This document shows positions 2,271 to 19,255 of a DNA stretch of 25,026 nt, piece after piece. The position numbers and the translations under genes were made by a program. The notes under the pieces are model-generated. The model ran no database searches. It was not told where the DNA came from and worked only from the letters and a program-made list of their open reading frames with translations. Numbering within the stretch: position 1 is the first letter of the stretch; each line of letters opens with the position of its first letter. The DNA is from an uncultured virus (IMG/VR IMGVR_UViG_3300030419_006277) (taxonomy: Duplodnaviria; Heunggongvirae; Uroviricota; Caudoviricetes). The stretch is taken from IMG/VR virus record IMGVR_UViG_3300030419_006277, positions 62,001 through 87,026 of that record. The stretch is one strand, 5' to 3'.

Positions 2271-4850
2271 CTATGACACTTTATGTTCTGGCAGTATAGT
2301 TGGAGCAGATTCATGTTTTTGATCAGAGCTTCTTACTGCTAATCCTTTTATAAATGGGCGCCCTTGTTTACTAAAGTGTCGTATTTCTTTTAGCCCTAAT
2401 TGGTTCTTACAGCAGTCGAGAAGTAAAGATATAAATCTTTTTTGACCAACTGGTTTTGATCCTGTGTCTTCACAGTAAGAGCAATAACTTGCATAGAGAT
2501 GATAATTGCTATTGCAATATCTTTCTTTAGCATCTTTTGCTGCTGGGATTTTTTTACCAACTGATGAAACTATTTCTGGCTGGTGTATAACTTCAGACTG
2601 GAGCCATTCAACTAAGTTGTTACTAGTTAATAGAATGTCGTTGCGAACTTTTTTAAGTGAGTGTACTTTTTCATAGGTATCTAGTAGATATTCGCGCATA
2701 TCTTCTGTTTTCATCGCTAAAACCCAGTTAACTAACCCAGGTAGATAATTCTTCCATAACCCTTTTACGATTCCACTTTCTATTTTTATCATCTCTTTCG
2801 CTTCCGAATTTTTATCCCATAGTGGGCGATTAAACTCGACAGTTAAGCGTCGTCTAGTAAGACCAGAAGTGTTATCTGTTGTTTGGATCGGTTCATTGGC
2901 GCAGACCATAACCATGCCTGTATAAACAAATGGTTCTCCTACATTTTTATTTTTTTCTTCAAATCGAAGATTGTCTCCCCCTGTTAGTGCTTTAAATATC
3001 TGAGCTGATCCGCCATATCTTTCTGAGTCATTGATTAGTGTTAATCGTTTTCCTTTAATAGAAGCGACTTCAAATCTACTTTGCTCTAGTTGGTTAAGGG
3101 TGCTACTTGCATAGTTTCCGGGTCCTACAAGAGAACAGCAGAGATTGGCGAAGGTTGATTTACCTCTTCCACCAGGTCCAATTACTTCCAAGAAACGTTG
3201 CAGTTCATGCCCTTGTCCTATTAGACAAGCTTTTAGCCATGCTCTAAGTACCTGAACTCTTTCTACGTCATTGTATTGAGTTCGATTTAACCAGTTAATG
3301 ATAGGCCCTGGATCGGCATTAGGGTCATAGTCAAAATCTAGCCCCCAGGTTAGATAGTGTTCTGGGTTGTGTTCTAAGAATTCACCTGTACTGATTTCGA
3401 GAACTCCGTTACGGAAAGCTAGGCGATCGTCATCATCGTCCCAATAGGTATGAGTTATATACGCTTGGGTGAGATTAACTACATCAGTAAGTAGATGGGA
3501 GGTATAGCCACCTGGGGTTGGGATTCTTTCATGTGTGAATAGATCTTGTACAAAGTGTTTGTACTCGTTTTTATAGTCTTCTCGTCTCCAAGTTCCTTTG
3601 GTTCTTTGATAGAACATGAATGTGTCGTATTTGGGATCATATCTCCAACCACATTCAATGACCATTCCGGTTACGAATTCAGCTAGTTCAGATGCTGGAG
3701 GGGTTTTAGGACGTCCTTTACTTCGAACTTTTTCGTTTACTCCCTCTTCTATTTCTTTCTCAGGTTTCCCAATAATCTTTTTAAGGGCACTGTGGATTGT
3801 CTGGTCTCTCATAATGTCTTCTCCGTTAAACATTGCTTTTGCTCTTTTTGCGAGCACTTCTGGATCTGATTCGACTACGAATCCCCCAAAGTCAACGAAT
3901 CCGTCTTCTTTGGCTTTTGCTCGCAGGGTGTGTACACCTGCAGCACCTTCTGGAGCAGGCCCACCTGGTATACGTTCAAATGTTGACCATTTCTGTTCAC
4001 AGGCACCTTCTTCGAAGTTGTCTGCTTGTGACGACCAATCGACCCATTCTTTTAGTAGGCAATCATCAACTTGATGAAGTGCCATACCAATAGTGAGCCA
4101 TTCGTCATAGTCAATTGCTCTTTCTTGGTTTAAATGATCTAGATAGATTTTTGTTTCATTAATTATTTCTTCTTTTCGATATTCAGATTCGTCTTCGTAA
4201 TTCAGATTTATTTGTTGAGTTAGGACTCCACTTGTTGCTGGTTTTCTATATTTATGAGTTGGGAAGGCTCTTGCTATTGCTTGATATAGCCATTCAGGTA
4301 GTTCGGGAGGATTTTTTGCGAATTCGTAGCCGCCATGGGAGGTAGTGTAATAACCAGCAGTATCGGGATGGCTACCCATAAGGGCTCCCTGTCTTGAACG
4401 AAATAAGATTTCGAAAGATGGGATACCTATTTTTATTGTGGCTTTATCAGGTATTAGAGCCAACTTTGCAGTTGGTACTCTGTACAGCATTCTTTGCCGA
4501 CCTGGTTTTCCAGATGAGATTGTTAGTGTTCTTGGAAAGATGGAGGAGAGTGGTCCACCAGCGAGTTCTTCTAGTGCTGGTACAGCATCTGGGCCATCGA
4601 TATCTACCCAAACCAAACCACCTTCGTTTGACCACTGACCACTAATTAATCCGACTCCTGAGGCTCTTCCTTCTTCCAATTCTCTTTTAATTTGTTCAAG
4701 AGAATAAGGATGAGAGTTCCAACCTGCTACATAGGCTCTCTTATCCCTGAGGGGCGTTAATGCCCAATCAGGGGGTATGAGATTGAGATTGATTTCTCCG
4801 GGCTCTAGCTTGCTGTTAGGCTCTTTAGGAGATGGCGTAGCAGTTGGCAC
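2271..4850 (-). CDS. Primase-helicase: N-terminal Prim-Pol, PriCT-2, D5_N-like and SF3 helicase domains
   Basis: WVDIDG (Prim-Pol DxD); DYDEWLTIGMALH...W..WS (PriCT-2); AFRNGVL...H.PE.YLT (D5_N); GPGGRGKST Walker A, LINDS Walker B and MVCANE motif C. GTG start. Confidence 0.92.
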   Translation of the reverse strand: MPTATPSPKEPNSKLEPGEINLNLIPPDWALTPLRDKRAYVAGWNSHPYSLEQIKRELEEGRASGVGLISGQWSNEGGLVWVDIDGPDAVPALEELAGGPLSSIFPRTLTISSGKPGRQRMLYRVPTAKLALIPDKATIKIGIPSFEILFRSRQGALMGSHPDTAGYYTTSHGGYEFAKNPPELPEWLYQAIARAFPTHKYRKPATSGVLTQQINLNYEDESEYRKEEIINETKIYLDHLNQERAIDYDEWLTIGMALHQVDDCLLKEWVDWSSQADNFEEGACEQKWSTFERIPGGPAPEGAAGVHTLRAKAKEDGFVDFGGFVVESDPEVLAKRAKAMFNGEDIMRDQTIHSALKKIIGKPEKEIEEGVNEKVRSKGRPKTPPASELAEFVTGMVIECGWRYDPKYDTFMFYQRTKGTWRREDYKNEYKHFVQDLFTHERIPTPGGYTSHLLTDVVNLTQAYITHTYWDDDDDRLAFRNGVLEISTGEFLEHNPEHYLTWGLDFDYDPNADPGPIINWLNRTQYNDVERVQVLRAWLKACLIGQGHELQRFLEVIGPGGRGKSTFANLCCSLVGPGNYASSTLNQLEQSRFEVASIKGKRLTLINDSERYGGSAQIFKALTGGDNLRFEEKNKNVGEPFVYTGMVMVCANEPIQTTDNTSGLTRRRLTVEFNRPLWDKNSEAKEMIKIESGIVKGLWKNYLPGLVNWVLAMKTEDMREYLLDTYEKVHSLKKVRNDILLTSNNLVEWLQSEVIHQPEIVSSVGKKIPAAKDAKERYCNSNYHLYASYCSYCEDTGSKPVGQKRFISLLLDCCKNQLGLKEIRHFSKQGRPFIKGLAVRSSDQKHESAPTILPEHKVS

Positions 4851-10873: not shown

Positions 10874-13606
10874 ATGGTTTTAACTTTACCTGATGCTCGA
10901 AAAGAAGGTGAAAGCGAAGAGGATTTTGCTACACGTTTACAGGAATTTGATCCTGCAGAGAAATTTTTAAATGAGTATACGCAACAGTCTACTGATCCTA
11001 GAGAGACAGATTTTAGTGTAGATGCTTATGCAGGGGATACGGGAAGAGGAGGATTTTTTAGTCCCGATGGTCAAGGGAGACCTAGTGATTCACAATCCGT
11101 ACATTGGACGAATCAAGGTTGGACTGAATCTGATCAAGTTGCTGCAGAGTATGGCGGAGCAAAAGGTAAATTAAAAAGAGAAGTTGAAGCTTTTGGAAAA
11201 CAGTTTCCTATTCGAACTACGGATACTCCTGTTGACCGTCCTCAAGGGAGAGGTATGGGAGATAGATGGGAAGGACCTCTAAGTAGTGGTTGGAGACCTA
11301 GAACAGTTGAAGTTGGGAGAATTGCTTCTCGAGATGGACGTAACATTCTTGCTAGAGATCGTCCGGCTGTTAGGCCAACTGGTCAGAGTGATGTTGGTTC
11401 TTCAAGGGAGGACTTTACCCCAAGGGGCAGGAGTTTTATAGGTGGTTATTCACGTGGACAACGTACTGGATCTGGCGCTGCATCAGCGGCTTCTCCTTTT
11501 GCGAGTTCTGGTAGTGCGAATCCGAATACAGTTTCAGTTTTTCTGCAAAAACAGTTAACTAATTTACAAGGGTCTCCTAGCGATGCTGGTCAACGGAATC
11601 CCAATTGGTGGGGCCAGGGAAGAAGCCCTGGTGAAAATACTAGACCTTGGGGCAATGTTAGACAGTCTTTTGGTATTAATGTAGACGAAAGTACTTTACT
11701 TGGAGAGGACTATAGAAAGCAGCAGGTCTCTGATACTCAGTTTGCCAAAGGAAAGACTCCAAGTGGGCCACTTAAAGGATATAGAGCAACTCCTGGGTTT
11801 GGAACAGTTAAGACAGCCGCTGCGAATGTGAAGGATGTTCTTACAGGTAATCGGACAGTTGCAGATGTTTATAAAAATCCAAAAACTCTTGAGCAAGTCA
11901 ATCCAGGTGGGTTTCAGAGTGGTCCAACACCAGCTGTTCGACAGTTTGTCGAAAGGGGGGCTGCTTTTGTACCCAAACTTAATGCTTATGCAAATACAGC
12001 GGCTTTGTTGTATAAAGGTATGGATTCTGTAACTAGAGCTAGGACTGGTCAGTCATTAGCTGAAAGAATTTCAAATCCTGTTGCAACTCTTGAACGGAAT
12101 GCGGAGCAGTTTAAACAACAGGCAGATGTAAATAGAGCTAAAAGAGATGAACTGGTTGGAGGAGTAAGAGATTGGTTTGTAGATAAGATGGGTAATGTTA
12201 AAAAAGACGTACAGACTAGGAACTTAAGGCAAGCTGGTCTTGGTACTGATATACAAGGGAATATTGTTACTGAGAGCCAAAGAACAAAGGCAGCTGATGA
12301 GTTTATAGCTGGTATAGAGAATTGGGAACCTTTAACAGATCAAAGGACTTTTGAGAAGATCCCTGAAGTTCGCGGGGGGATAGTTGACGGTCAGCGGGAT
12401 GAAGATTATCTAGTCGCTCCTGAAGCGGTAACTGAAACTACTACTCCAGCAGGTAGTGCATTTAATAAGGAGAATCTCCCCGGCTGGTTCCAACATTCGT
12501 ATACAGATGATGATGGAACTTTCATGGGATACAACTATTCAGGTGGATTTGGAGCATTAACACCAGGTCCTGGTAGTGGTGAGGATGGGACCCCCGAATC
12601 TGGATATGGTACTCCTGGTTATAACTGGGATACTAAAAGTGGTGGTACTTCTTGGACATTTACTGATTATGATACGTACTCATCTGCAAATAAATCTCCT
12701 GTAGTATCTGACGTTGGAACGGTTAATGAGCTTGGTGAAGTAGTACCAAATCTAGGTGTTAAGGATGGGGATGACGTTTCTTTCATAGGTATGTTTGGTC
12801 TACAGGAAAAGGAGCAAGAAGGTCCACATAAATTTAGAACAAATCAAGGGACAAAAGATGCTCAGATGATTCAAATGGGATATGGTTCGGAGACTCCAGA
12901 ACAGTTTAAACAACGAACCGGTCATAGTATTTATGAGTATTTAAATTTACCTACAGAGAGTCAGTATGAATCTCAAGGAGATCAATCTTCTACTGTCTCA
13001 GGTCAAGAAATAGCACAGGTTGCATCTGCTGATGACTTATCTGGTGTATTAGGTGCAACTAATCAACCTGCAACTGTTGATTTAAATAAGTCAACTGAGC
13101 TTCCTCCACCTCCGACGCCAGATGACTTTTTAGAGGAATATATACCTCCTTCTCAACCTTATGATCAACAAGAACCAGTTGGTGATTATATAAAGAATGA
13201 AGAGACTGGGGAGGTTACACAGCTTTATGATGCACCTACTCCAGAAACTTTACCTTCAGATGTTGTAGATTTTTCATATAATCCAGATCGGTTAAGTCAA
13301 GTAGAACAGCAAGAAACGGCATTTAAGCTCGGGACTGCTGCTCCTAGTGGTCCAAGTAGTGATCCTGCTGTTATTGCATCTGATAGAGCTGTAAGTGCTG
13401 CTTATGCTGCTTGGAAGGCTGCTTCTAATGCACAACAGAATTATTTAGGAGGACGTACTGCTGGTACTGAAGAAGAGTATAACCAATACATGAAACTTGC
13501 CGCTGCTGAGTCCGCAGCTTCTAAGAGATTGGATGCTGCTTATAATCAACAAGCTAGAGCAATGGCTGCTTATACAGCTAGAAATACAGCGTATGCCAGT
13601 ACTTAA
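10874..13606 (+). CDS. Large low-complexity protein, possibly virion-internal or ejected
   Basis: 910-aa uninterrupted ORF rich in G/S/T/Q/P with an Ala-rich helical C-terminus and no Cys; no catalytic motif seen. The function is inferred. Confidence 0.7.
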   Translation: MVLTLPDARKEGESEEDFATRLQEFDPAEKFLNEYTQQSTDPRETDFSVDAYAGDTGRGGFFSPDGQGRPSDSQSVHWTNQGWTESDQVAAEYGGAKGKLKREVEAFGKQFPIRTTDTPVDRPQGRGMGDRWEGPLSSGWRPRTVEVGRIASRDGRNILARDRPAVRPTGQSDVGSSREDFTPRGRSFIGGYSRGQRTGSGAASAASPFASSGSANPNTVSVFLQKQLTNLQGSPSDAGQRNPNWWGQGRSPGENTRPWGNVRQSFGINVDESTLLGEDYRKQQVSDTQFAKGKTPSGPLKGYRATPGFGTVKTAAANVKDVLTGNRTVADVYKNPKTLEQVNPGGFQSGPTPAVRQFVERGAAFVPKLNAYANTAALLYKGMDSVTRARTGQSLAERISNPVATLERNAEQFKQQADVNRAKRDELVGGVRDWFVDKMGNVKKDVQTRNLRQAGLGTDIQGNIVTESQRTKAADEFIAGIENWEPLTDQRTFEKIPEVRGGIVDGQRDEDYLVAPEAVTETTTPAGSAFNKENLPGWFQHSYTDDDGTFMGYNYSGGFGALTPGPGSGEDGTPESGYGTPGYNWDTKSGGTSWTFTDYDTYSSANKSPVVSDVGTVNELGEVVPNLGVKDGDDVSFIGMFGLQEKEQEGPHKFRTNQGTKDAQMIQMGYGSETPEQFKQRTGHSIYEYLNLPTESQYESQGDQSSTVSGQEIAQVASADDLSGVLGATNQPATVDLNKSTELPPPPTPDDFLEEYIPPSQPYDQQEPVGDYIKNEETGEVTQLYDAPTPETLPSDVVDFSYNPDRLSQVEQQETAFKLGTAAPSGPSSDPAVIASDRAVSAAYAAWKAASNAQQNYLGGRTAGTEEEYNQYMKLAAAESAASKRLDAAYNQQARAMAAYTARNTAYAST

Positions 13607-14136: not shown

Positions 14137-14260
14137 ATTCAGATAGTTCTCTATAACCTGTGCCGACATAAATTTGTCCGGCGACCACTGAAAGTGCCAT
14201 AATTGACCAGAAGACATAGTACCAACTGGCTTTAACTTGGTGCTGTTTCTTTTTTTTCAT
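14063..14260 (-). CDS. Small membrane protein
   Basis: Basic N-terminus then WYYVFWSIMALSVVAGQIYVGTGY hydrophobic helix; 1-nt overlap with the polA stop. Confidence 0.75.
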   Translation of the reverse strand: MKKKKQHQVKASWYYVFWSIMALSVVAGQIYVGTGYRELSESNHQLREGLFLLERERLLEFQRRQ

Positions 14261-16089
14261 TAGTGAGTCTCCATCCAGTTCTTTCCTTCTTTAGCTTCTC
14301 CGGTTAAGGGACACTTTAAGTTGTAAAATTCACCGGCTTTTCGAAATGAATCGATAGCTAAACTTTTGTAAAGATCTTCAAATTGAGGTTTTACAAGAGC
14401 TTGAATTTCATCATGAATGTGTGCTACGAAGGCAAAGTGACAAGCCCATCTTAGCCCATTCTCGTACAAATCCTTGTATAGGATGCATGTAGCTTTCTTA
14501 ACTGCAATAGCACCTGTTGATTGGAGAAGTTGATTTAATGCGGAGTGTCTAGAACGTATCTGTAGATGTCTACCATCGATACCCGTTAGATAGCCACGAC
14601 TTACTACTCGTTCATCAACTTTGTCTTTTAATTGTTTAATAGCAGGAAGATTTTTGTAAAAAGTATTAATAGTTTCGTAGCCTAATTCTTTTTGTTTATG
14701 TTCGTTTAGAGAGACGTCGAGGATAGAACCTAGTTTCTGGGCGCCCGCCCCATAAAGTACGGCATAGATCATAGTTTTTGCAAGCTCTCTCGTCTTTTTA
14801 TTTATCTTTCCTTGGCCATCAAATATTCCAAATAATTTTGCATTATGAGTATGAATATCAAAGTCATCAGTGCTAACTAATTTTGAATATTCTCCTCCAT
14901 CAAAGTAAGCTAATTGTGCACCTAGTGCCCGTAGTTCTAAACCACTGGCGTCAGCTCCTATTAATAGCCAACCATTATCTGCATAGAAAAGAGCGCGACA
15001 TTCAGCTCCATATTTATGACCAACTCTAGGAATTTGTGCCATATTTGGACCTCGATGTGAGCATCGTCCACTGACACAGGCATTGGTTATGACTGAACCG
15101 TGTATTCTTCCATCTTTATATTTTTGACTATGTTTTAACCAAGCTTCTTTTCCATCTACTATTTGACCTAATCTTTTATTAAGTAGTTGATATTCTTCTA
15201 AAAGAGCAGCCTCTGGATACTTTTTACCCAGGATTTTAAGGACGTCGTCATCGACCTTAACGTTCCCTTTTTCCGTCTTGGAGAATCTAATCTCAGGGTA
15301 ACGCTCCTGTAACCGACTGGCAGTTTGTTTACGCGAAGCGGGGTTAAACGTAGTGACTTTATCTTTAAGTGGTTTGCCAGTTTTGGCTGATATTCTTTTT
15401 TCCGTAATAGGCGGGAAGACTTTTTGGAGTTCGTCATCAATTTCTGTACGCCTCGTTTTAAGAGTGTTGACAAGTGCATAAGCTTCTTTTTCATTGAAAG
15501 GAAAACCGAAGCTTTCCTGTAGTGTCATGATAATCGCGAACTGGTGCTCTAGTTCATTGCAGCGTGGGTCTAGTTCTTGTGCTTGGAAGTACTTATAGAG
15601 TTCTAATGAAACTAGGGTGTCATTTTCACAGTATTTCTGCATCTCTTCTGACCATTCATCCCATTTACTCTCACCTTCTTCTGAGAGACTGGTCTTATTT
15701 ACATTTAAACGGTCTCCCCAAGCTCCTAATGAGTGTCGACCTTTATATTTTGGGTTGATGTGAGAGAATTTTTGTTCATCGACTGGTTCTAACTCTGGCC
15801 ATAACACCCGGCTAAGAATGAGTGTGTCATAGAGTATGCACTTTTTTTTCTTTCTAAAATCTGGATAGACTTTTCTTATTGCGCGAAAGTCGAAGTTGAT
15901 AATATTGTGGCCGATGATTAGATCTGCTTTGCTTAGGACGTAGAGTCCATTACAGATGGGTTCATACCCTTCTTTGTCTGCACAACTGATAGTCTCCCCC
16001 GTATCAACATCACGTAGGACAAGGCAGTGGACTTTATCTAATTCATGGACTAGACCATTGGTCTCACAGTCCAGCACGTAGCGGAGCAT
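14260..16089 (-). CDS. polA: DNA polymerase family A, T7 gp5-like (3'-5' exonuclease plus polymerase)
   Basis: ExoI DCETNGL, ExoII GHNIINFD, ExoIII YCEND; motif A DASGLELR, motif B RELAKTMIYAVLYG and motif C HIHDE. Confidence 0.95.
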   Translation of the reverse strand: MLRYVLDCETNGLVHELDKVHCLVLRDVDTGETISCADKEGYEPICNGLYVLSKADLIIGHNIINFDFRAIRKVYPDFRKKKKCILYDTLILSRVLWPELEPVDEQKFSHINPKYKGRHSLGAWGDRLNVNKTSLSEEGESKWDEWSEEMQKYCENDTLVSLELYKYFQAQELDPRCNELEHQFAIIMTLQESFGFPFNEKEAYALVNTLKTRRTEIDDELQKVFPPITEKRISAKTGKPLKDKVTTFNPASRKQTASRLQERYPEIRFSKTEKGNVKVDDDVLKILGKKYPEAALLEEYQLLNKRLGQIVDGKEAWLKHSQKYKDGRIHGSVITNACVSGRCSHRGPNMAQIPRVGHKYGAECRALFYADNGWLLIGADASGLELRALGAQLAYFDGGEYSKLVSTDDFDIHTHNAKLFGIFDGQGKINKKTRELAKTMIYAVLYGAGAQKLGSILDVSLNEHKQKELGYETINTFYKNLPAIKQLKDKVDERVVSRGYLTGIDGRHLQIRSRHSALNQLLQSTGAIAVKKATCILYKDLYENGLRWACHFAFVAHIHDEIQALVKPQFEDLYKSLAIDSFRKAGEFYNLKCPLTGEAKEGKNWMETH

Positions 16090-16621: not shown

Positions 16622-17221
16622 ATGACTTATCGAGTACGCCGCAAGTTTACAAGCTCTACATTTACTGTCGATGGTCAATTATGTAAAATTTTTATGGAAC
16701 CTTTCTCAAAATTTGGGGATGGTTACTACTTTTGGAATGTTGGTTTTGGTATTGGTAAGTCAAGTAGGCAATTAAATGATTGGTATTGGAAAAGAAAGAA
16801 TAAGAGAGCACGCTCTATTCGTAATCAGATGGTAGGGCGTTCTGGTTTAAAAGCTATACGTAGAGGATTTCAGGAAGTTTTACGGATGAGGTGGTTAATT
16901 GAGCCAGGAGACGCGATTATTTTGGATTGCACATCAGGAGATCCCGATAGACAATTCCACGCTTGGAGCCGCTGGCATCGGTATCATCCAGAGTGGGTTA
17001 TTGATTTCGAAAAGAAAGAGTTTTATTGGTATAGACCTCCTTATTTTGATGATCCAATAAGAAAGGAATTTAATATCACACCTTTGGTACCTGAAGACCC
17101 CTTAGAGAATACTGCGAAGGAAAAGTACTTTGATTGTTTCAGAGTGACCCCAAAGCTTGAGACAACAGAGCTCTCTATGGAGCAGATTGCTAGTCTATTG
17201 TCTCCTGTTTTGGTGAATTGA
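16622..17221 (+). CDS. Hypothetical protein
   Basis: 199-aa Trp/Arg-rich ORF, divergent from the polA unit with only 7 nt between the starts. Confidence 0.75.
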   Translation: MTYRVRRKFTSSTFTVDGQLCKIFMEPFSKFGDGYYFWNVGFGIGKSSRQLNDWYWKRKNKRARSIRNQMVGRSGLKAIRRGFQEVLRMRWLIEPGDAIILDCTSGDPDRQFHAWSRWHRYHPEWVIDFEKKEFYWYRPPYFDDPIRKEFNITPLVPEDPLENTAKEKYFDCFRVTPKLETTELSMEQIASLLSPVLVN

Positions 17222-17425
17222 GTGCTTGATCCTTATCGTTCAATAGATTTATATCCTGGTAAATGCGGAGTTACTTCAATAATTCATGGGTACTTATTTA
17301 AATTTAAACCTTGGTATTACGATGGTAAGACTGTGTGGTGGGGGAAGGAATATGAGTTAAGAAGTGATGCCGAAGATGCTTCATTTAAGTTAAAAAATTC
17401 TATAGATACAGGGGTATTAGTATAA
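17222..17425 (+). CDS. Hypothetical protein
   Basis: 67-aa ORF whose GTG start abuts the upstream stop. Confidence 0.65.
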   Translation: MLDPYRSIDLYPGKCGVTSIIHGYLFKFKPWYYDGKTVWWGKEYELRSDAEDASFKLKNSIDTGVLV

Positions 17426-17457
17426 ATCCTGGGTCAAAGAAGAACAGTCGCAGGCCC

Positions 17458-17540
17458 CTGAGGGAGGGATAGTTTTTACTGTTTCCTATCCCTGGCGAAC
17501 GAGAGCCTTGCCGAGGGACAGCGGTGAGGCTACCCCTCAG
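17458..17540 (+). ncRNA. Putative structured RNA (three-way junction), family unknown
   Basis: P1 ctgaggg/ccctcag, P2 agggatag/ctatccct, P3 agccttgccg/cggtgaggct with G-U pairs only on the plus strand; a GC-rich island in AT-rich intergenic DNA. Confidence 0.55.
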
Positions 17541-17596
17541 ATTTTATTGTAATAGAACTTAATATTTTTTTAACAATTAATGTAACATGACAAACG

Positions 17597-17625
17597 GTAA
17601 CAACGACTACAAAATAGGTTATAAT
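17597..17625 (+). promoter_or_regulatory. NtcA box (GTA-N8-TAC) overlapping the -35 region of a TATAAT promoter
   Basis: GTA-acaacgac-TAC at 17597-17610 and TATAAT at 17620-17625. Confidence 0.65.
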
Positions 17626-17655
17626 TTATTTAAGTCACACAAGAGGAAACTCACC

Positions 17656-17808
17656 ATGAAGCGTTTAACTTACAGAGGCACTGCCTACCAGAAATCCGAG
17701 ACCGTTAGTAAAGAAGGTCAGGATTTGAAACGTGTTCGGGATGATGCGCCTCATACCTACCGTGGTATTCGTTACCACTATGAAGCTAAGAAAAAGCAGG
17801 TTGCTTGA
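17656..17808 (+). CDS. DUF4278-like small basic protein (candidate glutamine synthetase inactivating factor)
   Basis: MKRLTYRGTAY...HTYRGIRY carries a duplicated YRG motif. GAGGA RBS and the promoter position favour ATG 17656 over 17587. Confidence 0.8.
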   Translation: MKRLTYRGTAYQKSETVSKEGQDLKRVRDDAPHTYRGIRYHYEAKKKQVA

Positions 17809-17828
17809 TTAAGGTTTCATAATTGAAT

Positions 17829-17860
17829 AAGGGCTCCTCCATGAGAGGGGCTTTTTATTT
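17829..17860 (+). terminator. Rho-independent terminator, possibly bidirectional
   Basis: gggctcct-ccatgag-aggggctt followed by tttattt, between convergent ORFs. Confidence 0.7.
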
Positions 17861-18013
17861 GGTTTTAAATTCTTCTATCTGTTCTTTCTGTTCTCGTTCT
17901 TTTTCTAAGATTCGTAGCACTAGAGCATCACGTTGATGGATGTTCTCAGGACGCGATAAGTATTTGTCTTTATAAATAGCGGTTATCGCTTCCTGTTTGT
18001 CTTCGCATGTCAT
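17855..18013 (-). CDS. Small hypothetical protein (52 aa, not in ORF track)
   Basis: MTCEDKQEAITAIYKDKYLSRPENIHQRDALVLRILEKEREQKEQIEEFKTK. Confidence 0.55.
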   Translation of the reverse strand: MTCEDKQEAITAIYKDKYLSRPENIHQRDALVLRILEKEREQKEQIEEFKTK

Positions 18014-18163: not shown

Positions 18164-19255
18164 ATGGGCACAGCCATCCAACGGAGGGACGTAGAAGTCT
18201 CTCCAGTACCGGGTTGGCCGCAGTTCTGTGACTGGGTAACATCAACTGACAACCGCCTCTATGTGGGGTGGTTTGGCGTGTTAATGATTCCTTGTCTTTT
18301 GACGGCGACAACCTGTTTTATTATTGCTTTTATTGCTGCTCCACCCGTTGACATAGATGGGATCCGTGAACCAGTAGCAGGATCTATTCTCTATGGAAAC
18401 AACATCATCTCAGGAGCAATTGTACCGAGCTCGAACGCAATCGGAATGCATTTTTACCCAATATGGGAAGCTGCAACGATTGATGAGTGGCTCTACAACG
18501 GAGGACCCTATCAGCTTATCGTCTTCCACTTCCTCATTGGTATCTCTGCTTACATGGGACGCCAATGGGAACTTAGCTATCGACTAGGGATGCGTCCCTG
18601 GATTTGTGTTGCTTATTCCGCACCAGTATCAGCCGCGTTTGCGGTATTCCTTATTTATCCGTTCGGACAAGGAAGTCTCTCTGACGGTATGCCGTTGGGG
18701 ATCTCAGGGACGTTCAACTTTATGTTTGTCTTTCAGGCGGAACATAATATCCTCATGCATCCTTTCCATATGTTGGGAGTTGCGGGGATGTTTGGAGGTT
18801 CTCTCTTCTCTGCTATGCATGGTTCCTTGGTTACATCTTCCCTTATCAGGGAGACAACTGAAAATGAATCGCAAAACTACGGATATAAATTTGGACAAGA
18901 GGAAGAAACTTATAACATCGTTGCAGCCCACGGCTACTTTGGACGTTTAATCTTCCAGTACGCCAGTTTCAACAACAGCCGGTCTCTTCACTTCTTCCTT
19001 GCAGTCTTCCCTGTGGTTTGTATTTGGTTCACTTCCATGGGTATTTGCACAATGGCGTTTAACTTGAATGGTTTTAATTTTAACCAGTCAATTATTGACG
19101 CTCAGGGCAAAGTTGTTCCGACCTGGGGGGATGTCCTGAACAGGGCTAACCTTGGAATGGAAGTTATGCATGAGCGTAATGCTCACAACTTCCCGCTAGA
19201 CTTGGCTGCTGCTGAATCGACTCCTGTTGCTTTAATTGCTCCGGCAATTGGTTGA
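18164..19255 (+). CDS. psbA: Photosystem II D1 protein
   Basis: Full-length D1 ([35 protein letters not shown]); Y161, D170, E189, H190, H332, E333, D342 and A344 equivalents present; no intron. Confidence 0.99.

What the first reader, a model, noticed from the sequence alone, without database searches (positions are those of the whole stretch)
17430..17540. Unexplained three-way-junction RNA with a possible kissing loop and an alternative pairing
Seen: a GC-rich non-coding island folding into P1 (ctgaggg/ccctcag), P2 (agggatag/ctatccct), a purine-rich junction ggcgaacgag and P3 (agccttgccg/cggtgaggct). G-U pairs indicate the plus strand. The P2 loop segment ctgtttc can pair with the P3 loop segment gggacag (7 bp including 2 G-U). 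Upstream gaacagt (about 17442-17448) can pair with the same P2 loop, which would be mutually exclusive. It is not a simple terminator, and I cannot match it to hammerhead, HDV, purine or glutamine riboswitch consensus. It lies just upstream of the DUF4278-like gene, a gene class often under glutamine riboswitch control. Inference: a novel ncRNA, riboswitch or ribozyme candidate.
Basis: partly seen in the sequence, partly recalled or inferred. Interest (0 to 1): 0.7.

Follow-up and report, generated by a model that had tools for sequence, protein, structure and literature searches.

The report
Cyanophage kissing-loop small RNA gene
This is a real, tightly folded small RNA gene of about 110 bases, carried by many uncultured ocean and lake cyanophages; it is related to a catalogued RNA of unknown function, it is not the switch of the gene next to it, and its job is still unknown.

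Summary
A covariance model built here (R1) finds the element in over 100 viral and metagenome loci (100 distinct sequences). On 85 distinct sequences 94.6% of cells pair, 31 of 35 pairs change on both sides, and 0 of 500 shuffles reach this.

The loop of an upstream hairpin P0 (GAACAGU, 17442-17448) pairs with the P2 loop (ACUGUUU, 17478-17484). It is paired in 100% of cells and 6 of 7 pairs covary. C-for-U changes in the P2-loop U-tract point to a triple helix there.

A -10 box sits 3-7 nt before P0 in 104 of 108 loci. At least five loci hold the RNA alone between opposite-strand genes. The DUF4278 (IF17-like) gene has its own NtcA-type promoter, and in relatives its own canonical glutamine riboswitch, downstream of this RNA.

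So this is a stand-alone ncRNA gene, not that gene's riboswitch. It shares its kissing-loop module with CyVA-1 (RF02965) but has a different topology and fails that model's cut-off. This scan noted the same kind of RNA before, on other DNA. The function remains unknown.

The parts
17418..17427 (+). -10 promoter box of the RNA gene (TAGTAT / TATAAAT); it overlaps the stop codon of the upstream ORF
   Evidence: A TAnnnT hexamer ends 3-7 nt before the first P0 base in 104 of 108 distinct loci; the other 4 have CATAAT. In many relatives the genes just upstream are on the other strand, so the RNA needs its own promoter. No transcript data.
17431..17457 (+). P0 hairpin: stem GGGTC/GGCCC and a 17-nt loop AAAGAAGAACAGTCGCA. 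AGAAG is invariant; GAACAGT 17442-17448 is the kissing strand.
   Evidence: 5 pairs, 99.5% paired, 4 of 5 with changes on both sides. A metagenome contig variant, G17433A with C17455T, is compensatory.
17458..17464 (+). P1 5' strand (CTGAGGG)
   Evidence: Pairs with 17534-17540. The inner G-C pairs are invariant, 4 of 6 modelled pairs covary, and 80.9% of cells pair; the outer pairs vary in length.
17465..17493 (+). P2 hairpin: AGGGATAG/CTATCCCT with loop TTTTTACTGTTTC (U-tract 17473-17477; kissing strand ACTGTTT 17478-17484)
   Evidence: All 8 pairs covary and 98.3% of cells pair. Kissing helix with the P0 loop: 7 pairs, 100% paired, 6 of 7 covary. Triple-helix signature in the U-tract.
17494..17503 (+). 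J2/3 purine-rich junction GGCGAACGAG
   Evidence: The A-A and G-A positions are conserved across the family alignments. No partner was found by mutual information.
17504..17531 (+). P3 hairpin: AGCCTTGCCG/CGGTGAGGCT with loop AGGGACAG, which mimics the P0 loop and can pair with the P2 loop
   Evidence: All 9 modelled pairs covary and 92.6% of cells pair; conserved tandem U-G/G-U. The loop is complementary to the P2 loop over 7 nt or more in 45 of 98 distinct sequences, against 3.7% for shuffled loops.
17532..17540 (+). J3/1 (AC) and the P1 3' strand (CCCTCAG): the 3' end of the conserved element
   Evidence: R1 match 17429-17540, 109.6 bits. In L106 and L146 a tRNA-Leu gene starts 1-4 nt after this point.
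17582..17625 (+). Not part of the RNA: promoter of the neighbouring gene. It holds GTA-N8-AAC (17582-17595), GTA-N8-TAC (17597-17610) and the -10 box TATAAT (17620-17625).
   Evidence: Read. The promoter scan lists GTAACA-17-TATAAT. A GTA-N8-TAC box lies within 130 nt downstream in 60 of 106 distinct loci. In L150 and L090 the same boxes and -10 box directly precede a canonical glutamine riboswitch. NtcA site definition from PMC6212724 (passages).
17656..17808 (+). Not part of the RNA: DUF4278 / IF17-like 50-aa ORF, followed by a terminator-like hairpin at 17829-17855
   Evidence: Pfam PF14105 at E 2.3e-5, 25.1 bits, cut-off 25.3. Terminator-like site.

Best explanation
The element is a stand-alone gene for a structured non-coding RNA of about 110 nt, carried by psbA-bearing, cyanophage-like viruses.

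Host RNA polymerase most likely starts at a -10-type promoter 6-7 nt upstream, so the RNA begins with hairpin P0 (inferred). The RNA folds into P0 plus a three-way junction (P1, P2, P3). It is locked into one compact shape by a 7-bp loop-loop helix between the P0 loop and the 3' part of the P2 loop (shown by covariation). The 5' U-tract of the P2 loop probably lies in the major groove of that helix as U.A-U / C+.G-C triples, as in an H-type pseudoknot (inferred from correlated substitutions).

It is a rearranged relative of the Rfam sRNA motif CyVA-1. It has the same two kissing loops, but the hairpin order is swapped and there is an extra hairpin, P3.

It is not the riboswitch or leader of the adjacent IF17-like (DUF4278) gene, which is a self-contained cassette with its own NtcA-type promoter.

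My best guess at the mechanism is that the RNA acts in trans through its folded shape, by binding a protein or small ligand. P3's loop would be a lineage-specific adaptor. In the window's clade it copies the P0 loop and can displace it from the P2 loop, giving two exclusive tertiary states. In other clades it is a 6-nt palindrome that could make kissing dimers. The partner and the biological role are unknown.
For: Family and structure:
- The element is syntenic in 17 of 18 loci fetched through the upstream gene.
- Pattern scans, confirmed with model R1, gave 44 of 45 viral-contig hits and 76 of 80 fetched metagenome hits. Chance pattern hits were rejected.
- There are 100 distinct sequences.
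- Covariation. The kissing helix is not part of the R1 model, so its 100% pairing is not fitted.

Triple helix (100 distinct sequences):
- C at U-tract column 58 occurs in 13 of 24 sequences where kissing pair 16-64 is G-C, and in 0 of 76 where it is A-U.
- C at column 57 occurs in 2 of 3 sequences where pair 15-65 is G-C, and in 0 of 97 otherwise.
- The order of the columns is parallel to the purine strand.

Own promoter: (104 of 108 distinct loci).

Stand-alone gene:
- The RNA lies between opposite-strand genes in L011, L012, L085, L086 and L088.
- A tRNA-Leu gene starts 1-4 nt after it in L106 and L146.
- A canonical terminator lies 9 nt after it in L048.

Separate cassette downstream:
- Boxes, -10 box, Gln-II aptamer and ORF in L150 lie behind a manA RNA and its terminator.
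- Boxes, then a glnA aptamer, in L090.
- RF01704 or RF01739 lies downstream of the RNA in 13 loci.

Link to CyVA-1:
- The CyVA-1 model aligns its 17-nt-loop hairpin to P0 in relatives: 21.6 bits in G004, and 17.1 bits on model positions 39-67 in G005.
- A true CyVA-1 (L358, 43.0 bits, cut-off 41.4) has loops GUUUCUGUCGCUUCC and GAAGGAGAGCGACGUCA. These are complementary in the same register and follow the same C-in-U-tract rule.
- R1 cross-hits that hairpin at 20.4 bits, and L230 has our architecture with the CyVA-type GAAGGAG loop at 54.2 bits.

P3-loop classes.
Against: - There is no transcript evidence. The only RNA run held covers 17751-17893 alone, and all runs were contigs. The start, the end and the very existence of a discrete RNA are therefore inferred.
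- Only 1 of 103 distinct loci has a canonical terminator within 90 nt. Transcription may therefore usually run on into the downstream genes, which keeps a leader role open.
- A DUF4278 ORF lies downstream on the same strand in 80 of 117 loci (loci not de-duplicated) and never upstream or on the other strand. That linkage is non-random, and a purely independent gene does not explain it.
- No binding partner, ligand or target is identified. No further covarying tertiary pair was found.
- The CyVA-1 link rests on one confirmed CyVA-1 sequence, the Rfam consensus and sub-threshold cross-hits.
- The triple-helix counts are not corrected for relatedness.
Confidence: 0.55

Rival explanations
1. It is a cis-acting leader or orphan riboswitch. 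Transcription from the RNA's promoter would read through into the downstream genes (IF17-like gene, psbA and others). The folded element, perhaps on binding a nitrogen- or carbon-status metabolite, would then gate that read-through, acting in tandem with the NtcA boxes and, in relatives, with the glutamine riboswitch.
For: A DUF4278 ORF lies downstream on the same strand in 80 of 117 loci: 74-117 nt away in 62 and 233-970 nt away in 18, and never elsewhere. There is almost no canonical terminator after the element (1 of 103). The conserved junction and loop nucleotides and the probable triplex resemble aptamer architecture. The P0/P3 competition for the P2 loop in 45 of 98 sequences is what a switch would need. 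IF17-like genes are normally riboswitch-controlled (PMC6212724, passages read).
Against: The RNA is kept intact where nothing on its strand follows (L011, L012, L085, L086, L088). It is also kept where a tRNA gene, or a manA RNA with its own terminator, follows. The ORF keeps its own promoter, and its own glutamine aptamer begins right after that promoter. In L085 three opposite-strand genes separate the RNA from the ORF. No conserved alternative pairing with downstream sequence was seen, and the ribosome-binding sites do not covary with the P2 loop.
Confidence: 0.22
2. It is a promoter-proximal RNA that acts on the transcribing polymerase or on replication. It could be a put-like processive antiterminator that drives long read-through or antisense transcripts, or an origin or primer transcript beside the DNA polymerase module.
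For: It sits directly after a promoter, at the edge of the replication module. PolA lies 1.3 kb away in the window, and PolA is within about 1-1.5 kb in L084, L085, L086 and L088. An AT-rich stretch follows it. In several loci it points into opposite-strand genes with no terminator.
Against: No test was possible. GC skew of the 87-kb genome follows gene strand and shows no origin signal at the locus. An elaborate tertiary fold with a variable P3 loop is not expected of a primer. There is no sequence likeness to any Rfam family of that kind.
Confidence: 0.1
3. It is a DNA-level site or a chance GC-rich inverted repeat, not an RNA.
For: The single-sequence fold is only modestly better than shuffles (z = -2.1). 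The P3-loop palindromes (TGATCA, TGGCCA, AGCT) are also typical DNA sites.
Against: 31 of 35 pairs covary. G-U pairs are conserved on one strand only. The loop-loop helix covaries over a distance of about 40 nt. Covariance-model matches are strand-specific.
Confidence: 0.02

Closest known systems
CyVA-1 RNA motif (Rfam RF02965, type 'Gene; sRNA'; Weinberg et al. 2017, PMC5737381 - one passage seen, supplements unreadable)
   Same: One hairpin has a 17-nt loop GAAG[A/G]AG-N6-GUCA. A second hairpin's loop is a U-tract, then the complement of that N6, then UC(C). The G-U closing pair is in the same register, and the same C-for-U change goes with a G-C pair. A short G/C-rich P1 closes a three-way junction. 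It is found in viral contigs. Its function is unknown.
   Different: In CyVA-1 both hairpins lie inside P1 in the order U-tract hairpin then GAAG hairpin, within about 77 nt. Here the GAAG hairpin (P0) lies 5' of P1 and outside the junction. The junction holds the U-tract hairpin (P2), a 10-nt J2/3 and an extra hairpin P3, for a total of about 110 nt. The CyVA-1 model does not reach its cut-off on any family member tested: best 21.6 bits against 41.4, and nothing on the window.
Glutamine riboswitches glnA (RF01739) and Glutamine-II / Downstream-peptide (RF01704) in front of IF17-like DUF4278 genes (Klaehn et al. 2018, PMC6212724, passages read)
   Same: Same neighbourhood: upstream of a DUF4278 gene in cyanobacterial-type DNA. 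Both have a three-stem or pseudoknotted fold.
   Different: There is no match to either model in the window. In 13 relatives the true glutamine aptamers are separate elements downstream of this RNA; in L090 and L150 they start just after the gene's own promoter. The window's cassette has lost the aptamer, leaving about 30 nt from the -10 box to the ATG.
H-type pseudoknots with a major-groove U.A-U triplex (SAM-II, preQ1-II riboswitches, telomerase RNA) - recalled, not tested by any model
   Same: The 5' pyrimidine part of a hairpin loop is followed by a strand that pairs outside the hairpin. U-to-C changes are tied to A-U-to-G-C changes in the pseudoknot helix.
   Different: The outside partner is the loop of another hairpin (a kissing complex), not a single-stranded tail. 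There is no sequence likeness and no Rfam hit. No ligand is known.
Purine-riboswitch type three-way junction with L2-L3 kissing; phi29 pRNA and retroviral DIS loops - recalled analogies
   Same: P1 encloses P2 and P3, whose loops can pair in 45 of 98 sequences. Self-complementary 6-nt loops in 24 of 98 could make dimers.
   Different: The L2-L3 pairing is not family-wide and competes with the universal P0-P2 pairing. There is no Rfam match. Dimerisation is untested.

Membership tests
CyVA-1 (RF02965) | Rfam covariance model score at or above the gathering cut-off (41.4 bits) | tested here: not met
   No CyVA-1 hit on window 17300-17850 at E up to 10. The best hit in the own genome is 13.6 bits at another place. 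Family members in G002, G004 and G005 score 13.0-21.6 bits. Positive control L358 scores 43.0 bits.
CyVA-1 (RF02965) | Hairpin with a 17-nt loop GAAGGAGAaCGACGUCA | tested here: met
   The P0 loop is 17 nt, AAAGAAGAACAGUCGCA in the window and GAAGAAGAACAGCGUCA in most members. The CyVA-1 model aligns its positions 39-67 to P0. L230 carries GAAGGAG in our architecture.
CyVA-1 (RF02965) | Second hairpin whose loop is a U-tract plus the complement of the first loop | tested here: met
   P2 loop UUUUU-ACUGUU-UC compared with L358 loop UUUCU-GUCGCU-UCC; both are complementary to their partner loops.
CyVA-1 (RF02965) | Topology: P1 encloses both hairpins, U-tract hairpin first, about 77 nt | tested here: not met
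   Here the GAAG hairpin is 5' of P1, the junction holds P2 and a new P3, and the length is about 110 nt.
Glutamine riboswitch (RF01739 / RF01704) | Match to the aptamer models | tested here: not met
   No hit in the window. The same search finds true aptamers as separate elements downstream of the RNA in 13 related loci.
Riboswitch in general (cis-regulatory leader) | Consistently in the 5' UTR of the regulated gene, with an expression platform | tested here: not met
   A promoter lies between the RNA and the ORF. The RNA stands alone between opposite-strand genes in 5 loci. No conserved alternative pairing with downstream sequence was seen. Ligand binding is not testable here.
Intrinsic terminator | G+C-rich hairpin directly followed by a U-run | tested here: not met
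   The scan lists only a weak 5-bp site inside the element. A U-run after P1 is not conserved. 1 of 103 loci has a true terminator within 90 nt.
Self-cleaving ribozymes (hammerhead, twister, pistol, hatchet, HDV-like) | Match to the Rfam models; cleavage activity | tested here: not met
   No Rfam hit. Activity is not testable with these tools.
tRNA / tmRNA | ARAGORN or Rfam tRNA match | tested here: not met
   No tRNA or tmRNA in the window.

The most novel reading that the evidence does not exclude
The RNA is a trans-acting sensor or self-assembling RNA. A triplex-reinforced kissing core would form a binding pocket. The P3 loop would toggle the molecule between two tertiary states (P0:P2 or P3:P2), or join two molecules through palindromic loops. 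A free-standing phage RNA would then report or rewire host nitrogen/carbon status next to the IF17-like, manA and glutamine-riboswitch cassettes. This would be the first function for the CyVA-1 superfamily.
Probability: 0.15. Interest if true: 0.85.

Novelty: new variant of a known kind. Interest (0 to 1): 0.55.

Why it matters
Complex-folded bacterial and phage RNAs with strong covariation and no known job are rare, and have in the past turned out to be riboswitches, ribozymes or RNA-only assemblies.

This family has over 100 members in uncultured cyanophage-like viruses and an unusually clear tertiary signature: a covarying 7-bp kissing helix with triple-helix-type substitutions. It also ties an orphan Rfam motif (CyVA-1) to a second architecture, which shows which part is the conserved functional core.

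It sits at the head of a hot spot where these phages collect regulatory RNA cassettes: manA RNA, glutamine riboswitches with IF17-like genes, and tRNA-Leu. It may therefore bear on how cyanophages read or reset host nitrogen status.

It also corrects a tempting mis-annotation, namely that it is the riboswitch of the DUF4278 gene.

Tried and rejected
- Rfam, whole window at gathering score and 17300-17850 at E up to 10: nothing meaningful.
- blastn of two family variants against 50,697 phage records: no match.
- R1 found nothing in S-EIVl and only a chance-level hit (E 0.76, 9.2 bits) in S-RIP2. It found nothing in P-TIM40, S-BM3, S-CREM1, Sf-FS3 or S-CBP4. CyVA-1 is absent from those five too.
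- Exact 18-mer scan of viral contigs: 0 hits.
- Genome-contig pattern scan: 14 hits. Three are real, lie in MAG contigs and look like phage DNA (L065, L075, L078). None is in cyanobacteria, and the rest are chance.
- Sequencing runs: 6 listed, 4 laid, all as contigs. The one RNA run covers only 17751-17893 at about 90% likeness, so there is no evidence on expression or on RNA ends.
- Ribosome-binding-site masking by the P2 loop: GUUUCCU matches AGGAAAC in the window, but the sites in other loci do not follow the P2 loop. Rejected.
- Base-pairing of P2 with the CACAC leader motif: no covariation. Rejected.
- GC-skew search for an origin: skew follows gene strand and gives no signal.
- Mutual-information scan for further tertiary pairs: only the known helices.
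- CyVA-1 loop patterns in viral contigs: the 80 loci fetched were nearly all chance (one, L230, is our family). One search gave 0 hits. One search gave 33 hits, of which one is a true CyVA-1, L358.
- Paper searches: for DUF4278 with riboswitch; cyanophage, structured RNA and covariation; phage, IF17, glutamine synthetase and gifB; and CyVA-1. I found no description of this RNA.
- The IMG/VR survey PMC10690425 (passages; 6 supplementary files searched, 3 not searchable) may still list it among its more than 10,000 candidates.
- The supplements of PMC5737381 could not be read.

Full report
**What is there.** The window is the last 25 kb of an 87-kb IMG/VR virus record. It holds genes for a prim-pol/D5 primase, an exonuclease, SSB, a family-A DNA polymerase (14260-16089, minus strand), psbA (18164-19255), Hsp20 and a 2OG oxygenase. 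psbA is 75-79% identical to that of Prochlorococcus and Synechococcus phages. It is therefore an uncultured cyanophage-like virus.

The flagged island reads as follows:
- P0: GGGTC 17431-17435 with GGCCC 17453-17457, and a 17-nt loop.
- P1: 17458-17464 with 17534-17540.
- P2: 17465-17472 with 17486-17493, loop TTTTTACTGTTTC.
- J2/3: 17494-17503.
- P3: 17504-17513 with 17522-17531, loop AGGGACAG.

The minimum-free-energy fold of the + strand is exactly this (-45.8 kcal/mol, z = -2.1). The minus strand folds worse. No tRNA or tmRNA is present. Rfam finds nothing in the window, and only chance-level hits at E up to 10.

**It is a conserved RNA family.**
- The 199-aa gene upstream (16622-17221, phrog_38455) brought in 18 related viral loci. 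nhmmer found the element in 17 of them, syntenic and on the same strand. The covariance model later found it in the 18th, L011.
- A pattern drawn from the two conserved loops matched 45 viral contigs. It matched 14 genome contigs. It matched at least 119 metagenome contigs, of which 80 were fetched.
- Model R1, built from 14 sequences, confirmed 44 of the 45 viral hits. Of these, 41 loci were scored directly and three more are sequence-identical to confirmed loci.
- R1 also confirmed 76 of the 80 metagenome hits. It confirmed two of the 13 genome-contig loci searched (L075, L078). A third real hit, L065, is identical to L064 and was not searched. All three lie in MAG contigs that look like phage DNA, and none is cyanobacterial.
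- R1 rejected the chance hits, including L057 at E 0.39 and L076 at E 0.99.
- The union holds 100 distinct sequences.
- The own genome has one copy.
- No cultured phage tested has it.

**Structure.** On the plain MAFFT alignment of 16 sequences, P0, P2 and the P0-loop/P2-loop helix are 100% paired. On the model-guided alignment of 85 distinct sequences:
- 94.6% of 2867 cells pair.
- 31 of 35 pairs change on both sides.
- 0 of 500 shuffles reach any of the five measures, and sliding the partner gives 43-55% pairing.
- P2 covaries at 8 of 8 pairs, P3 at 9 of 9, and P0 at 4 of 5.

The loop-loop helix is not part of the model, so it is not fitted. It has 7 pairs, is 100% paired, and 6 of 7 pairs covary. 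Examples are AACAGU/ACUGUU, GACAGC/GCUGUC, GAGCGAU/AUCGCUU and AACAAU/AUUGUU. An invariant G-U pair and conserved U-G/G-U pairs in P3 fix the strand.

Taken sequence by sequence, 45 of 98 distinct RNAs, including the window, have 7 or more complementary bases, against 3.7% for shuffled loops. Their substitutions keep the pairing (ACAG to ACAA with CUG to UUG; C to U and A to G wobble changes). Another 24 of 98 carry a perfect palindrome of 6-8 nt, usually at a fixed place in a 10-nt loop: UGAUCA, UGGCCA, UAGCUA, CCAUGG or GUGGCCAC, against 6.2% for shuffles. Two sequences belong to both classes, and 31 to neither.

**A probable triplex.** The 5' part of the P2 loop is UUUUU. A C appears at its fourth base only when the kissing pair 16-64 is G-C (13 of 24, against 0 of 76 with A-U). 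A C appears at its third base only when pair 15-65 is G-C (2 of 3, against 0 of 97). The order of the columns is parallel to the purine strand. That is what U.A-U to C+.G-C major-groove triples in an H-type pseudoknot would give. The counts are not corrected for relatedness, but both U and C occur within close sub-clades.

**It has its own promoter and is not tied to one downstream gene.**
- A TAnnnT box ends 3-7 nt (mostly 6-7) before P0 in 104 of 108 distinct loci, and the other four have CATAAT.
- In most clades the genes just upstream are on the other strand.
- Downstream partners vary. A DUF4278 ORF lies at 74-117 nt in 62 loci and at 233-970 nt in 18 of 117 loci (loci not de-duplicated).
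- A manA RNA (RF01745) follows in 9 loci, about 70 nt after the element in most of them. In L150 it is followed by its own terminator.
- A tRNA-Leu(UAA) gene follows 1-4 nt after the element in L106 and L146.
- A different + strand gene follows in L008.
- Opposite-strand genes lie on both sides in L011, L012, L085, L086 and L088.
- A canonical terminator follows within 90 nt in only 1 of 103 loci. The 3' end is therefore not defined by sequence alone.

**The neighbouring gene is a separate cassette.** Between the RNA and the ORF the window has GTA-N8-AAC (17582-17595), GTA-N8-TAC (17597-17610) and TATAAT (17620-17625). The ATG follows 30 nt later. GTA-N8-TAC is the NtcA site, and DUF4278 is the IF17 (gifB) domain. 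Host IF17-like genes are NtcA-controlled and sit behind glutamine riboswitches (PMC6212724, passages).

In L150 the same boxes and -10 box are followed at once by a Glutamine-II aptamer and the ORF, all behind the manA terminator. In L090 the boxes are followed by a glnA aptamer. In all, 13 loci have RF01704 or RF01739 downstream of our RNA. Our RNA is therefore neither that riboswitch nor its replacement. The window's cassette has simply lost its aptamer.

One thing remains unexplained. The cassette, when present, is always downstream of the RNA and on the same strand.

**Relation to the known.** I tested that.
- The CyVA-1 model does not hit the window.
- It does align its 17-nt-loop hairpin to P0 in relatives: 21.6 bits in G004, and 17.1 bits on model positions 39-67 in G005.
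- Its consensus is P1 / hairpin with loop GGUUUUaCCGUU.. / hairpin with loop GAAGGAGAaCGACGUCA / P1.
- One true CyVA-1 in a viral contig (L358, 43.0 bits against a cut-off of 41.4) has loops UUUCU-GUCGCU-UCC and GAAGGAG-AGCGAC-GUCA. They are complementary in our register and obey the C-in-U-tract rule.
- R1 cross-hits that hairpin at 20.4 bits, and L230 has our architecture with the GAAGGAG loop at 54.2 bits.

The two families therefore share the kissing module. The order of the hairpins, the place of P1 and the extra P3 differ, so this RNA fails membership of RF02965 but is best filed as a new variant of that kind. CyVA-1 has no known function. I saw only one sentence on it in PMC5737381, and its supplements were unreadable.

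**Mechanism, and how sure I am.**
- Shown: the fold, the kissing helix, the strand, the family, and the independence from the DUF4278 cassette.
- Inferred: the promoter and transcription start, the triplex, and the discrete RNA.
- Guessed: a trans action through shape, with the P3 loop as adaptor (an alternative P3:P2 state in the window's clade, or dimers through palindromes elsewhere).

No transcript evidence could be had. Rival readings remain open: a cis leader or orphan riboswitch, and a polymerase- or replication-linked element. Both are scored in the fields above. A DNA-only or chance reading is close to excluded.

**Verdict.** This is a real, well-supported structured RNA gene. It is a new architectural variant of the orphan CyVA-1 kind, already met once by this scan on other DNA, and its function is unknown.

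Noticed in passing
window 17582-17855: The IF17-like (DUF4278) cassette of this phage has the two GTA-N8-(T/A)AC boxes, a TATAAT box, the ORF and a terminator-like hairpin. It lacks the glutamine aptamer that the same cassette carries in relatives (L150, L090, L010 and others). The phage copy may thus have escaped glutamine control while keeping NtcA-type boxes.
   Followed up: partly
L150 1676-1913; also L010, L107, L111, L112, L116, L123, L138, L140: A manA RNA (RF01745, filed as cis-regulatory) follows the new RNA in 9 loci, about 70 nt after it in most of them. In L150 it is followed directly by a strong intrinsic terminator. That looks more like a stand-alone RNA, or an OFF switch, than a simple leader.
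   Followed up: partly
L106 1368-1453 (-), L146 1327-1400 (+): A tRNA-Leu(UAA) gene begins 1-4 nt after the 3' end of the RNA in one sub-family. RNase P cleavage would then define the RNA's 3' end. Other loci have the same tRNA 460-700 nt downstream (L130, L161).
   Followed up: partly
L011 about 3960-4030 and L033 (downstream of the element): These loci share a conserved block, GATGGAACCCCyCGGGCCTTCAATCCGAAGGGTAGG..GCAGTCATTGACGAGGATGACTG, with hairpin potential and no Rfam hit at gathering score. It may be a second structured element or a terminator of the convergent ThyX-like gene.
   Followed up: no
window 10874-13606 (+): A 910-aa ORF in the replication module has no Pfam or PHROG match at all.
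   Followed up: no
window 17433 / 17455: One contig of run X2 carries G17433A together with C17455T, a compensatory G-C to A-U change in P0 within a natural population.
   Followed up: no
L065, L075 (Bacteroidetes MAG), L078 (Planctomycetaceae MAG): Contigs binned into non-cyanobacterial MAGs carry the RNA with near-identical cyanophage-type flanks. They are probably phage contigs mis-binned into these MAGs.
   Followed up: no
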